Shown piece by piece: positions 43,101 through 44,157 of a DNA stretch of 64,000 nt (position 1 is its first letter; each line of letters begins with the position of its first letter). This DNA comes from Candidatus Coproplasma excrementigallinarum (lineage in GTDB: Bacteria > Bacillota > Clostridia > Christensenellales > Borkfalkiaceae), in the NCBI GenBank assembly GCA_018714625.1, contig DVNE01000009.1, positions 16,840 to 80,839 of the forward strand. Direction: 5' to 3'. The notes under the pieces were generated by a model. It was given only the letters and a program-made list of their open reading frames with translations. It had not been told where the DNA came from and made no database searches. The position numbers were made by a program, and so were the translations under genes.

Positions 43101-44157
43101 TATATTCAAGCTTATGGACGCAGGCAAGATTGACTACGTAGTTTATACCGGCAAGACGGATATGGAGTCTATATCCAGCTATATTTCGCTTCATCACCAT
43201 GCAATACTGCTCGGCATAACAGTGCTCACCTCGCTCGACACGACTAACGCGCTTGCAGACTGCATTGCGGGCAGGTACACCCAGTTCAACACCGAACTTG
43301 TGGACATCAACCACCTGCGTAAGCAAAAGCTCAAGCTGACATTCTGCAAGATGCACAGCTGCGGCAATGACTATATATTCTTCAACAACTTTGATAATAA
43401 GATAACCTGCCCCGAATCGCTGGCCATCAACTTCTCTGACAGACATAACGGCATAGGCAGCGACGGCATTGTAATGATTGAAAAGTCTGACATTGCCGAC
43501 TGCAAGATGAGGGTGTTCAACCGCGATGGCAGCGAGGCTGGACTGGCCGCCAATCCTTTAAGGTGCGTTGCCAAGTATGTGTTCGATAAGCACATAGTAA
43601 ATTCCGACAAAATGACCGTTGAAACTTGTGCAGGAGTAAAAACGCTTGCAGTTGTTTCATTCAACGGTGTGGCAAGTTCGGTTTCGGTAAATCTCGGCAA
43701 GGCGGAGTGCAAAAAGGTAAATCCCGACGGCAAGCTCTATGCTGAATTAAAGGAGTACTGCGGTACGATTTACGATGCTCTTCTTGTGGACGTCGGAAAC
43801 AAGCATTGCACAATCTTCTGCGACAAGGTGGACGACGTGGACATGGAAGGCCTCGGCCAGGCCGTAATCTCTTCCGGACAGTTCCCCGGAATAACCTATA
43901 TCGAGTGCGTGCGCGTGGTCAACGACCTTACGCTCAAGCTCCGCGTATGGGACAGGGTGAACGGTGAAATGATGGCCTGCGGCACTGCGGCAGCGGCTGT
44001 TACGGCAGCGGCGGTAGAGCTGGGTATGTGCCAGAACTGCAACGTCATAACGGTAAAACTCCGCGGCGGCGACCTGTTCGTAAGGCATCTCGAAGACGGC
44101 AGCCTTGTGCTGGAAGGCAGCGTTAAACAATCGTTTGAAGGCGTAATAGAGATATAA
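40114..44157 (+). CDS. carB: carbamoyl-phosphate synthase large subunit fused in frame to a C-terminal DapF-like (diaminopimelate epimerase fold) domain
   Basis: Residues 1 to ~1070 are a full-length CarB: two ATP-grasp halves ([21 protein letters not shown] and [20 protein letters not shown]), the oligomerisation domain, and the MGS-like allosteric domain. Residues ~1073-1347 carry the DapF motifs [34 protein letters not shown] and MACGTA. There is no stop codon between the two parts. Confidence 0.9.
   Translation: [1347 protein letters not shown]

What the first reader, a model, noticed from the sequence alone, without database searches (positions are those of the whole stretch)
43321..44157. 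CarB fused in frame to a DapF-like domain that has lost the first catalytic cysteine
Seen in sequence:
- The carB ORF is 1347 aa, whereas CarB normally ends near residue 1070.
- Here the CarB allosteric (MGS-like) domain runs ...[26 protein letters not shown] and continues without stop, SD or start codon into [18 protein letters not shown]....
- The last ~275 aa carry the ordered DapF hallmarks: F.KMHG.GNDF becomes [14 protein letters not shown].G.G.D becomes [12 protein letters not shown].DGSE becomes FNRDGSE; GN.HC becomes GNKHC; E.G.GET.ACG(S/T)G becomes [13 protein letters not shown].

Established knowledge:
- DapF is a two-base, PLP-independent epimerase that uses two cysteines.
- The first sits in ..DGSEA.MCGNG.RC.. 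and the second in ..ACG(S/T)G...
- In this protein the first motif reads [14 protein letters not shown] (about 43519-43566). The cysteine is Ala and the GNG loop is ANP. The second cysteine is retained.

Inference:
- The domain cannot act as a classical two-base DAP epimerase.
- It could be a ligand-binding pseudoenzyme adding a new allosteric input (DAP, lysine or an ornithine-like ligand) to carbamoyl-phosphate synthase.
- Alternatively it could be a one-base enzyme with altered chemistry, as seen elsewhere in the racemase fold.
- The gene sits inside an arginine operon. MurE in this window has the DNPR motif for meso-DAP, so the cell still needs a genuine DapF somewhere.
- I am not aware of a described CarB-DapF fusion, but I cannot search for one.
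Basis: partly seen in the sequence, partly recalled or inferred. Interest (0 to 1): 0.78.

Follow-up and report, generated by a model that had tools for sequence, protein, structure and literature searches.

The report
CarB fused to crippled DapF domain
The large subunit of carbamoyl-phosphate synthase in this gut Clostridia genome carries a real, in-frame diaminopimelate-epimerase domain that has lost one of its two catalytic cysteines, and this is the hallmark of a whole clade of arginine-operon enzymes descended from an older, apparently still bifunctional fusion.

Summary
ORF 40114-44157 encodes 1347 aa: a complete CarB (residues 1-1052) followed, with no stop and at most about 13 linker residues, by a DapF-fold domain (1076-1345). 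Ala1145 replaces the first catalytic Cys ('CGNG' reads 'AANP'); the second Cys (C1289) is kept. The identical protein occurs in independent assemblies (HIU61209.1, Candidatus Coproplasma excrementigallinarum; UniProt auto-names it 'Multifunctional fusion protein').

The fusion is not unique: 54 GTDB species carry it. Twenty keep Cys73 (19 keep both cysteines), and most of these sit directly upstream of dapL or pyrG-dapL, so they look like working DapF. Thirty-four have A/G/S/T at Cys73. These sit in arginine operons, are never followed by dapL apart from one degenerate case, and remain under purifying selection.

In most of the clade the DAP pocket is essentially invariant. In the window's Coproplasma subclade the pocket is remodelled in a conserved way (A74, P76, F/Y190, K209, A220).

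Best reading: an epimerase-dead descendant of a bifunctional fusion, kept as a non-catalytic ligand-binding module on arginine-pathway CPSase. This is inferred, not shown. Rivals are an entrenched relic or a one-base enzyme. Whether the genome has a separate dapF could not be tested.

The parts
31370..38993 (+). arginine biosynthesis genes upstream: argG 31370-32656, argC 32963-33907, argJ 34594-35817, argB 35941-36795, argD 36928-38094, argF 38091-38993
   Evidence: NCBIfam equivalog hits above curated cut-offs
39048..40121 (+). carA, the CPSase small (glutaminase) subunit; it overlaps the carB start by 8 nt
   Evidence: NF009475 440.8 bits, cut-off 221
40114..44157 (+). single ORF carB::dapF*, 1347 aa
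   Evidence: the identical protein is found in independent assemblies
40114..43269 (+). complete CarB part (residues 1-1052): two ATP-grasp synthetase halves, the oligomerisation domain and the MGS-like allosteric domain (953-1039 = 42970-43230)
   Evidence: NF003671 1439 bits on 1-1052 (model 1-1047 of 1058); Pfam domains; alignment to E. coli CarB 1BXR
43270..43338 (+). junction, residues 1053-1075 (...[17 protein letters not shown]). It holds the last ~11 CarB model positions plus at most ~13 linker residues. There is no stop and no Shine-Dalgarno-like run before ATG 43351
   Evidence: model coordinates; sequence; 'NTELVDIN' is the most conserved peptide of the fusion alignment; AF2 pLDDT is about 58 here
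43339..44154 (+). DapF-fold domain (residues 1076-1347), epimerase-disabled
   Evidence: TIGR00652 195-200 bits; PDB 2OTN 2.6e-47; Foldseek TM 0.79-0.85 to DapF structures
43408..43410 (+). Cys1099 in the motif I-T-C-P-E-S, a clade-specific cysteine at the N-cap of the first helix of the DapF N-domain
   Evidence: Cys in 108/109 metagenomic fusion homologues and 21/37 non-Cys73 GTDB fusions, against 0/20 Cys73 fusions and 0/27 standalone DapFs (Fisher p=4e-10)
43546..43557 (+). 'AANP' in place of DapF 'CGNG'; Ala1145 (43546-43548) occupies the Cys73 position
43897..43899 (+). Tyr1262 at the position of DapF Asn190 (a ligand of the distal carboxylate)
   Evidence: F/Y in 21/22 proteins of the window's subclade; residue role from PMC8225329
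43951..43956 (+). Asp1280-Arg1281 at DapF Glu208-Arg209 (distal amino and carboxylate ligands)
43978..43980 (+). Cys1289, the retained second catalytic cysteine (the Cys217 position), in 'ACGTA'
2..1318 (+). murE (5' end cut by the window), DAP-adding type with the DNPR motif; context for the question of DAP demand
   Evidence: NF001126 452 bits, cut-off 373; DNPR found

Best explanation
What it is:
- The last 272 codons of carB encode a genuine DapF-fold domain, fused head-to-tail to the native C-terminus of a complete CarB.
- The fusion is inherited, not new. An ancestor in gut Clostridia fused carB to the dapF of a dapF-dapL unit, giving a two-Cys, probably bifunctional enzyme that still exists in Ruminococcus, Oscillospiraceae and others.
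- In a derived clade the gene sits in the arginine operon (argCJBDF-carA-carB::dapF*). There the cysteine that deprotonates the L-centre (Cys73) was replaced by Ala, Gly, Ser or Thr.

How it most likely works:
- The domain can no longer run the thiol/thiolate two-base epimerisation.
- It has nevertheless been kept intact under purifying selection.
- I commit to this reading: it now acts as a non-catalytic, ligand-binding module that modulates (or at least stabilises) the arginine-pathway CPSase through the adjacent allosteric domain. It would exploit the open-to-closed clamp motion that DapF makes on ligand binding.
- In most of the clade the ligand should still be DAP-like, because the pocket is invariant.
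- In the window's Coproplasma subclade the pocket is rebuilt in a conserved way (A74, P76, F/Y190, mostly K209, A220). The ligand has probably changed, or the pocket is self-occupied.

Shown versus inferred:
- Shown: the architecture, the loss of Cys73, the phylogenetic and synteny pattern, and the conservation.
- Inferred: ligand binding and any effect on CPSase.
For: - Architecture and Cys->Ala.
- DapF fold.
- Reality of the junction.
- Census: 54 GTDB species carry the fusion. 20 keep Cys73 (19 keep both cysteines) and 34 have non-Cys73 (25 A, 5 S, 3 G, 1 T).
- Tree: non-Cys73 forms are a derived clade nested in a grade of two-Cys fusions and Clostridial DapFs (NJ).
- Synteny upstream: an arg gene lies upstream in 19/29 non-Cys73 fusions against 0/14 Cys73 fusions (p=3e-5).
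- Synteny downstream: dapL or pyrG lies within 4 kb in 1/29 against 12/18 (p=4e-6). Standalone dapF is typically followed by dapL.
- Pocket in the main clade: in 85 A/G73 proteins the counts are N64 85/85, N75 85/85, N157 83, N190 84, E208 85, R209 84, C217 82. In the 38 non-Cys73 fusions (34 GTDB species, the window, L001-L003) these residues are kept in 32-38.
- Rate: the divergence of the DapF domain relative to CarB is the same in non-Cys73 and two-Cys fusions (ratio 1.3-1.7).
- Selection: dN/dS is at most about 0.1-0.23, with dS saturated.
- Window subclade: the replacements are themselves conserved, with F/Y190 21/22, K209 19/22, A220 20/22, P76 20/22.
- Restriction to fusions: the non-Cys73 representatives that could be placed (matched at the C-terminal end of longer proteins, or, for P0258, starting with CarB-tail sequence) are pieces of fusions. 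Two short ones (P0256, P0326) were read but not placed, two (P0318, P0357) were not read, and P0388 has a different, possibly chimeric N-terminus.
- Precedent: catalytically dead DapF (C73A/C217A) still acts as a protein regulator of RppH (PMC4227774).
Against: - No binding or kinetic data exist.
- The AF2 linker is low-confidence, so no domain interface is established.
- There is no clear physiological logic for DAP control of arginine-pathway CPSase.
- Cys217 is retained in about 96% of sequences. That is more than a pure sensor would seem to need and hints at residual chemistry.
- The window's subclade evolves 1.5-2x faster in this domain than comparable two-Cys fusions and has altered both subsites. 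This could be relaxation rather than re-tuning.
- I could not show that the genome has a separate working DapF. None lies in the window or in about 16 kb of extra flank.
Confidence: 0.42

Rival explanations
1. Entrenched relic. After the ancestral fusion, CarB folding or oligomerisation came to depend on the appended domain. When epimerase activity became dispensable (a second dapF, a Ddh route, lysine auxotrophy or LL-DAP walls), the catalytic Cys decayed. The domain could not be deleted, and it has no ligand-dependent role.
For: - Independent decay routes exist where a standalone dapF lies nearby. L039 is heavily degenerate and frameshifted. L034 has a degenerate N-terminal motif with a canonical dapF 1.8 kb downstream.
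- L040 lost the second Cys instead of the first.
- The window's subclade is accelerated.
- A Glu in the 'PE(S/G)' motif is conserved in all fusions but variable in standalone DapFs, which hints at a CarB contact.
- Cultured Christensenella have LL-DAP walls (10.1101/2020.11.14.383166).
Against: - The ligand-contacting residues are near-invariant in 85 proteins that lack Cys73.
- The relative rate is unchanged compared with catalytic fusions.
- A pure scaffold should let N11, N64, N75, E208, R209 and C217 drift, as they do in L039.
Confidence: 0.22
2. One-base enzyme. With only the D-face Cys left, the domain catalyses chemistry that needs a single proton transfer at C-alpha, such as elimination, dehydration or stereoselective protonation. 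The substrate would be DAP-like in most of the clade and altered in the window's subclade.
For: - Cys217 is retained in 82/85 and 21/22 sequences, and the whole pocket is conserved.
- Small residues only (A/G/S/T) occupy position 73.
- There is a conserved, not random, pocket change in the window's subclade.
- A clade-specific invariant Cys1099 was gained.
- Precedents in racemase folds: trans-3-hydroxy-L-proline dehydratase and PhzF appear among the structural neighbours. Single-Cys arylmalonate decarboxylase, and HF elimination from 3-fluoro-DAP by single-Cys DapF mutants, are from my own knowledge.
Against: - No candidate substrate links to arginine or carbamoyl-phosphate metabolism.
- No new acid/base-type residue is conserved in the pocket.
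- Cys1099 is predicted at a helix N-cap outside the segments that line the DapF active site (from memory of the structures; distance not measured).
Confidence: 0.18
3. It is still the cell's working DAP epimerase, using another base (water, Cys1099 or a residue from CarB) in place of Cys73.
For: - The score lies above the DapF equivalog cut-off.
- The pocket is intact in most of the clade.
- No other dapF lies in about 80 kb around the gene.
- MurE is DAP-type.
Against: - Ala or Gly cannot carry a proton. Cys->Ala DapF is inactive and Cys->Ser keeps <0.1% activity (PMC4227774, PMC8225329).
- The clade has left the dapL neighbourhood.
- The window's subclade also changed G74, G76, N190 and G220.
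- The same form appears in Treponema and Selenomonadaceae bins, lineages expected to have their own DapF (inference).
Confidence: 0.05
4. Sequencing or assembly artefact: a missed stop or frameshift joins two separate genes.
For: None found. Only isolated relatives show interruptions, and those are elsewhere in the gene (L001, L002, L039, L046).
Against: - The identical 1347-aa product comes from independent assemblies.
- The 90% cluster has 384 members; the 15 listed are 1347-1351 aa.
- The in-frame junction is conserved in 54 species.
Confidence: 0.01

Closest known systems
Canonical diaminopimelate epimerase DapF (TIGR00652 / PF01678; e.g. B. anthracis 2OTN, H. influenzae 1GQZ, E. coli 4IJZ)
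   Same: - Same two-domain fold and same profile membership.
- N11, N64, N75, N157, R209, E213, C217, G218 and T219 are present in the window protein.
   Different: - Cys73 is Ala, and 'CGNG' reads 'AANP'.
- N190->Y, E208->D, G220->A.
- It is a C-terminal domain of CarB, not a free protein of about 280 aa.
- It is not next to dapL.
Two-Cys CarB-DapF fusions of Ruminococcus, Oscillospiraceae, Neglectibacter and Ruminococcaceae AM07-15 (auto-annotated; no paper found)
   Same: Same architecture, the same junction (…L-R-x-E-K-x-x-L-x-F-x-K-M) and common ancestry.
   Different: - They keep both cysteines and lie directly upstream of dapL or pyrG-dapL, so they probably act as the housekeeping DapF.
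- The window's form lost Cys73 and lies in the arg operon.
E. coli DapF as activator of RppH (PMC4227774; structures 6D13, 6VCK)
   Same: A DapF fold acts as a protein-level regulator independently of epimerase chemistry; the C73A/C217A mutant still works.
   Different: That is a non-covalent partnership of an otherwise active enzyme with a Nudix hydrolase. Here there is a covalent fusion to CPSase and a natural loss of the Cys.
One-base members of racemase-like folds: trans-3-hydroxy-L-proline dehydratase (4K7G, 6R76), PhzF (1U1W); arylmalonate decarboxylase (own knowledge)
   Same: A pseudo-symmetric racemase fold in which one of the two bases is replaced by a non-catalytic residue.
   Different: Only 11-16% identity. 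Their substrates and remaining bases differ, and no chemistry has been demonstrated here.
DapF-family enzymes with changed substrates: HisR/CntK (PMC11602996), PddB Dab racemase (PMC8225329), O-ureidoserine racemase DcsC (7VDY)
   Same: Divergence of the distal-site residues (N64/N157/N190/R209 positions) re-tunes the ligand. The window's subclade changes N190 and mostly R209.
   Different: All of those keep both catalytic cysteines and are racemases.
E. coli CarB allosteric (MGS-like) domain, binding ornithine, IMP and UMP
   Same: - The CarB part is complete.
- K954, T974 and T977 equivalents are conserved, and K993 is Arg (alignment; residue roles from my own knowledge).
   Different: A 272-residue extra domain follows the native C-terminus.

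Membership tests
DapF, diaminopimelate epimerase (TIGR00652 / PF01678) | Profile score above the curated cut-off over the full length | tested here: met
   TIGR00652 195-200 bits against cut-off 114.65, model positions 2-268 of 270; PF01678 in two copies
DapF, diaminopimelate epimerase (TIGR00652 / PF01678) | Two-domain pseudo-symmetric DapF fold | tested here: met
   AF2 pLDDT 83.7; Foldseek top 25 hits are DapF or DcsC, TM 0.75-0.85 normalised by target
DapF, diaminopimelate epimerase (TIGR00652 / PF01678) | First catalytic cysteine (Cys73, in 'CGNG') | tested here: not met
   Ala1145, 'AANP'; clade-wide A/G/S/T
DapF, diaminopimelate epimerase (TIGR00652 / PF01678) | Second catalytic cysteine (Cys217, in 'CG(S/T)G') | tested here: met
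   Cys1289 in 'ACGTA'
DapF, diaminopimelate epimerase (TIGR00652 / PF01678) | DAP-contacting residues N11, G74, N75, G218, S/T219, N64, N157, N190, E208, R209 (list from PMC8225329) | tested here: inconclusive
   Window: N11, N64, N75, N157, R209, G218 and T219 kept; G74->A, N190->Y, E208->D. All are kept in the wider non-Cys73 clade
DapF, diaminopimelate epimerase (TIGR00652 / PF01678) | Genomic coupling to the DAP/lysine pathway (dapF-dapL) | tested here: not met
   No dapL or other DAP gene in the window or about 16 kb of extra flank; 1/29 non-Cys73 fusions against 12/18 Cys73 fusions have dapL or pyrG downstream
DapF, diaminopimelate epimerase (TIGR00652 / PF01678) | LL-DAP <-> meso-DAP epimerase activity | not testable with these tools
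   Needs an enzyme assay or complementation
CarB, glutamine-dependent CPSase large subunit (NF003671 / TIGR01369) | Full-length equivalog match with both ATP-grasp halves, the oligomerisation domain and the MGS domain | tested here: met
   1439 bits (cut-off 599) on residues 1-1052; Pfam domains
CarB, glutamine-dependent CPSase large subunit (NF003671 / TIGR01369) | Adjacent carA partner | tested here: met
   carA at 39048-40121 overlaps the carB start
Non-catalytic (pseudoenzyme) ligand-binding module derived from an enzyme | Catalytic residue lost while the binding pocket and fold stay under purifying selection | tested here: met
   For the window's subclade the pocket is conserved, but in an altered state
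Non-catalytic (pseudoenzyme) ligand-binding module derived from an enzyme | Ligand binding and a ligand-dependent effect on the host enzyme | not testable with these tools
   Needs ITC or thermal shift, and CPSase kinetics
One-base enzymes of the racemase fold (t3LHyp dehydratase / PhzF-like) | Sequence or profile membership in those families | tested here: not met
   They are only distant structural neighbours (11-16% identity, ranks 26 and below). No Pfam hit at E<=0.01 other than DAP_epimerase covers this domain of the window protein. The precomputed Pfam marks on some homologues do include PhzF (PF02567) and Pro_racemase (PF05544) alongside PF01678

The most novel reading that the evidence does not exclude
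After fusing to CarB, a DapF domain was neofunctionalised across a whole clade of gut bacteria. It discarded the L-face catalytic thiol but kept an invariant DAP pocket, kept the D-face Cys and gained a new invariant Cys (C1099). It would now serve either as a sensor of a cell-wall/lysine precursor (DAP-like) that allosterically gates the arginine-pathway carbamoyl-phosphate synthase, or as a one-base enzyme with unknown chemistry. The Coproplasma subclade, which includes this window, would then have re-tuned the pocket to a different ligand.
Probability: 0.3. Interest if true: 0.8.

Novelty: new variant of a known kind. Interest (0 to 1): 0.6.

Why it matters
- CPSase is a textbook allosteric enzyme whose regulatory inputs (ornithine, IMP, UMP) all act through the C-terminal MGS-like domain. 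A conserved extra domain attached exactly there, derived from an enzyme of another pathway and stripped of one catalytic base, would be a new kind of regulatory input. It would also be a clean natural example of enzyme-to-pseudoenzyme conversion with its intermediate stages still alive: two-Cys fusion, then Cys-less form with an intact pocket, then Cys-less form with a remodelled pocket.
- There is a practical annotation consequence. These proteins score above the DapF equivalog cut-off, so metabolic reconstructions of many gut Clostridia will count a DapF that is probably dead. Conversely, standalone DapFs are being named 'carbamoyl-phosphate synthase large subunit'.
- The two-Cys fusions occur in cultured strains (Neglectibacter caecimuris M00184, Ruminococcaceae AM07-15), so experiments are feasible.

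Tried and rejected
- Compensating Cys at DapF position 9 ('HSCGNDY'). Rejected: Cys9 is equally common in canonical DapFs.
- New conserved acid/base residue specific to Cys-less forms. None was found in the pocket; only E27, S28, R195 and V249 stand out. Cys1099 is clade-specific but probably lies outside the active site.
- Second dapF in the window. tblastn found none. Annotation of the other window ORFs found no DAP or lysine gene. Walking one step beyond both window ends on contig NODE_188 also found none. The look-up from the last window ORF failed.
- Homologue search with a standalone Christensenellales DapF (L055), to find a Coproplasma dapF by name. No informative names came back.
- Apparent 'split' carB in relatives (L001, L002). 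This turned out to be selection bias: the protein list showed only proteins of 552 aa or fewer, while GTDB loci are almost all intact.
- dN/dS. dS is saturated, so only upper bounds are available.
- AF2 domain interface. The linker has low confidence and no coordinates or PAE are available.
- Library-wide representative search. It added little, because the fusions are mostly collapsed into a few 50% clusters.
- Literature. Three searches for a described CarB-DapF fusion or a Cys-less DapF paralogue found none.
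Full report
**1. The observation**

The window contains one ORF, 40114..44157 on the + strand, of 1347 aa. It reads straight from the CarB allosteric domain (...[26 protein letters not shown]) into [18 protein letters not shown]... without a stop.

- Pfam finds the full CarB set (CPSase_L_D1/D2/D3, MGS at residues 953-1039) plus two DAP_epimerase repeats at 1e-39.
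- NCBIfam places the CarB equivalog on residues 1-1052 (1439 bits). It places the DapF equivalog TIGR00652 on 1076-1345 (195 bits, cut-off 114.65).
- About 11 CarB model positions remain after residue 1052, so the linker is at most about 13 residues.
- The closest solved protein is B. anthracis DapF 2OTN (2.6e-47). Its alignment puts 'lAANP' opposite 'sCGNG' and 'aCGTa' opposite 'aCGTg'.
It is self-consistent: C73, C217, N11, Q44, N64, N157, N190, E208 and R209 all fall at the expected positions. With it, the window domain has C73->A (Ala1145, 43546-43548), G74->A, G76->P, N190->Y, E208->D, T214->M and G220->A, and keeps C217 (Cys1289, 43978-43980).
- An AlphaFold2 model of residues 931-1347 has mean pLDDT 83.7. 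It matches DapF crystal structures with target-normalised TM 0.79-0.85.
- The gene closes an argG-argC-argJ-argB-argD-argF-carA-carB operon.
- The window's MurE is the DAP-adding equivalog and carries DNPR.

**2. Not an artefact, and the source of the window**

- The identical 1347-aa protein is called on at least six contigs from different assemblies, made with SPAdes- and MEGAHIT-style assemblers.
- It is HIU61209.1 / UniRef100_A0A9D1MJ29 of Candidatus Coproplasma excrementigallinarum. UniProt's automatic rules name it 'Multifunctional fusion protein'.
- Its 90% cluster has 384 members; the 15 listed are 1347-1351 aa.

**3. The fusion is widespread and comes in two kinds**

A scan of one genome per GTDB species with an alignment of the junction plus domain returned 80 loci. 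Fifty-four species carry CarB and DapF in one frame, and 47 of these loci cover the gene end to end as a single uninterrupted ORF. A further locus, L046, carries the fusion with a frameshifted DapF tail and is not counted among the 54.

- They include Clostridia MAGs, Christensenellales, Ca. Coproplasma avicola, Oscillospiraceae and Ruminococcus.
- Two are cultured strains: Neglectibacter caecimuris M00184 and Ruminococcaceae bacterium AM07-15.
- They also include bins labelled Selenomonadaceae and Treponema/Spirochaetaceae.
- Twenty keep Cys73; 19 of these have both cysteines in canonical 'MCGNG...ACGTG' motifs.
- Thirty-four have a small non-thiol residue at position 73 (25 Ala, 5 Ser, 3 Gly, 1 Thr).
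- All 120 listed metagenomic homologues of the window's tail also contain CarB sequence or begin inside it. Wherever the motif was found it has A or G at that column.
- In a neighbour-joining tree the fused domains nest within Clostridial DapFs. Two-Cys fusions are basal, and Cys-less forms make one large derived clade with a Ser-type subclade. This is a distance tree only, so the number of independent losses is not settled.

**4. Synteny separates the two kinds**

- Standalone dapF is usually followed directly by dapL, the LL-DAP aminotransferase.
- Two-Cys fusions are carA-carB::dapF followed by dapL or pyrG-dapL.
- L034 (Neglectibacter) is carA-carB::dapF-x-dapF-pyrG-x-dapL.
- L062 is carA-dapF-pyrG-x-dapL with no carB.
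- dapL or pyrG lies within 4 kb downstream in 12/18 Cys73 fusions and 1/29 non-Cys73 fusions (p=4e-6). The single exception is the degenerate L039.
- An arginine gene lies upstream in 0/14 Cys73 fusions and 19/29 non-Cys73 fusions (p=3e-5).

The simplest history has three steps:

1. carB became fused to the dapF of a dapF-dapL unit.
2. That enzyme is probably bifunctional, and in some lineages it is probably the only DapF.
3. A derived copy associated with the arginine operon then lost Cys73.

**5. Is the Cys-less domain decaying?**

Mostly not.

- In the 38 non-Cys73 fused domains drawn (34 GTDB species, the window and L001-L003), the DapF-conserved positions other than 73 are kept. Counts are N11 35, N64 36, N75 37, N157 34, N190 32, E208 34, R209 34 (+4 K), E213 38, C217 37, G218 38 and T219 36.
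- In 85 metagenomic proteins of the main 'A/G-G-N' type the pocket is essentially invariant. Counts are N64 85/85, N75 85/85, N157 83, P158 85, H159 85, N190 84, E208 85, R209 84, C217 82 and G220 85.
- These are exactly the residues that contact DAP in H. influenzae DapF (summarised in PMC8225329).
- The divergence of the DapF domain relative to the CarB part is the same in Cys-less and two-Cys fusions (ratio 1.3-1.7 at CarB identity 0.55-0.8).
- dS is saturated, but dN/dS is at most about 0.1-0.23.

Real decay looks different:

- L039 (Acutalibacter) is frameshifted, has lost N64, N75, H159, E208 and C217, and has a canonical dapF 0.7 kb downstream.
- L034 has a degenerate N-terminal motif next to a canonical dapF.
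- L040 lost Cys217 instead of Cys73.

**6. The window's own subclade is a further step**

In the 22 'AANP'-type proteins (Coproplasma and relatives) the changes are conserved rather than random:

| Position | State in the subclade |
|---|---|
| A73, A74 | 22/22 each |
| P76 | 20/22 |
| N190 -> F/Y | 21/22 |
| R209 -> K | 19/22 (the window keeps Arg) |
| G220 -> A | 20/22 |
| E208, P158 | variable |
| N11, N75, H159, E213, G218 | 22/22 each |
| N64, C217, T219 | 21/22 each |

- Both the proximal carboxylate cradle (G74, G220) and the distal carboxylate site (N190, R209) are altered.
- This subclade's domain evolves 1.5-2 times faster relative to CarB than comparable two-Cys fusions (ratio 2.9-3.9 against 2.0-2.1).
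- For this particular protein, DAP is therefore a less secure ligand than for the rest of the clade. The pocket may bind something else or be self-occupied by the aromatic residue.

**7. A correlated gain**

- The motif I-T-C-P-E-S (Cys1099, 43408-43410) sits at the N-cap of the first helix of the DapF N-domain in the model.
- It is Cys in 108/109 metagenomic fusion homologues and in 21/37 Cys-less fusions.
- It is Cys in 0/20 Cys73 fusions and 0/27 standalone DapFs (p=4e-10).
- From memory of DapF structures this segment does not line the active site, so I do not read it as a relocated base. I could not measure distances.
- The neighbouring Glu is conserved in all fusions and variable in free DapFs, so this surface may face CarB.

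**8. Mechanism**

Established knowledge:

- DapF uses a thiolate/thiol pair.
- The C73A/C217A E. coli enzyme is inactive (PMC4227774).
- Cys->Ser variants keep <0.1% activity (PMC8225329).

From my own knowledge, Cys73 abstracts the proton from the L-centre and Cys217 from the D-centre. Single-Cys mutants still eliminate HF from the matching 3-fluoro-DAP isomer.

An Ala or Gly at position 73 therefore rules out classical epimerisation.

- **Best reading (confidence 0.42):** the domain is a non-catalytic ligand-binding module that acts on the adjacent allosteric domain of an arginine-pathway CPSase. This rests on the conserved pocket, the retained fold, the covalent attachment to CarB's allosteric domain with almost no linker, and the arginine-operon setting. 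DapF's ligand-induced clamp closure offers a plausible transmission mechanism, and DapF already has a catalysis-independent regulatory role on RppH in E. coli. Both the binding and the regulatory effect are inferences.
- **Entrenched relic (0.22):** independent decay routes and the faster evolution of the window's subclade support it. The invariant pocket argues against it.
- **One-base enzyme (0.18):** the roughly 96% retention of Cys217 and the conserved pocket remodelling support it. No substrate can be proposed.
- **Still-working DapF (0.05).**
- **Artefact (0.01).**

**9. What could not be settled**

- I could not determine whether the genome holds a separate, canonical dapF or a Ddh bypass.
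- None lies in the 64-kb window or in about 16 kb of extra flank on the same contig. The tools do not allow a whole-assembly scan.
Cultured Christensenella, which may be related to this lineage, have LL-DAP in the wall (10.1101/2020.11.14.383166).
- I know of no evidence that DNPR distinguishes LL- from meso-DAP.
- The AF2 linker (window residues about 1051-1070) has pLDDT about 58, so the domain arrangement is undetermined.

**10. Novelty**

- Three full-text searches found no paper on a CarB-DapF fusion or a Cys-less DapF paralogue.
- Databases already 'know' the architecture through automatic naming. The fusion has also contaminated annotation: many free 280-aa DapFs are named 'carbamoyl-phosphate synthase large subunit'.
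- The following appear undescribed: the split into a two-Cys, dapL-linked form and a Cys-less, arginine-operon form; the invariant pocket without the base; the second-step pocket remodelling in Coproplasma; and the gained Cys1099.
- I rate this a new variant of a known kind, with interest 0.6. It is a well-supported, clade-wide, testable case of enzyme-to-non-enzyme (or altered-enzyme) conversion on a classic allosteric enzyme, but its function is unproven.

Noticed in passing
L002 9953-9955 (same in L003); L001 about 9941-9943: Two relatives have an in-frame stop inside the second synthetase half of carB, at otherwise conserved codons. L002 has TGA where the window has Gly ('LGY*TGLYP'). L001 has TAG where the window has Lys ('YYAV*VPVF'). 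The gene is therefore called as 868-878 aa plus 449-467 aa. They could be pseudogenes, errors or recoding; the GTDB loci are almost all intact.
   Followed up: partly
L062 8871-10840: In an uncultured Ruminococcaceae genome carA is followed directly (4-nt overlap) by a canonical standalone dapF, then pyrG and dapL, with no carB in between. It looks as if the carB part had been excised from a carA-carB::dapF unit.
   Followed up: partly
L034 6917-10996 and 12784-13641; L039 2057-6168 and 6822-7700: Neglectibacter and Acutalibacter carry both a fused DapF domain and a canonical standalone dapF just downstream. In L034 the fused copy has a degenerate N-terminal motif. In L039 it is frameshifted and heavily degenerate.
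   Followed up: yes
L040 6923-10969; protein P0265: One Christensenellales fusion keeps Cys73 but has Ser at Cys217, and Phe at the R78 position. One standalone 277-aa DapF representative also has Cys217->Ser. The opposite base can therefore also be lost.
   Followed up: no
L046 6920-10894: The fusion's DapF tail runs into an Arg/Ser/Pro-rich out-of-frame-looking end after 'ACGTA', suggesting a frameshift near the 3' end.
   Followed up: no
proteins P0139, P0167, P0169: Free DapF proteins of about 280 aa are named 'carbamoyl-phosphate synthase large subunit' or 'carB' by NCBI and JGI sources. This is annotation spill-over, presumably from the fusion.
   Followed up: no
protein P0388: A 332-aa protein joins a Cys-rich N-terminus (…GMACVGGCIGGAGCL…) to an Ala73-type DapF domain that starts in mid-domain. 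It could be a different fusion or an assembly chimera.
   Followed up: no
window 2-12175 and L086: The cell-wall/division cluster runs mraZ-rsmH-x-pbp-murE-mraY-murD-ftsW-murA-x-x-ftsZ-(spoVG)-murC, with no murF between murE and mraY. An Asp/Glu-racemase family gene sits just upstream of mraZ.
   Followed up: no
window 27120-29120 (-): A 665-aa protein has only an N-terminal PadR domain recognised; the remaining roughly 560 residues have no family hit.
   Followed up: no
The word-indexed homologue search listed only proteins of 552 aa or fewer, although full-length members of 1347-1351 aa exist in the same collection. This is a property of the tool, and it created the false impression that carB is commonly split.
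   Followed up: partly
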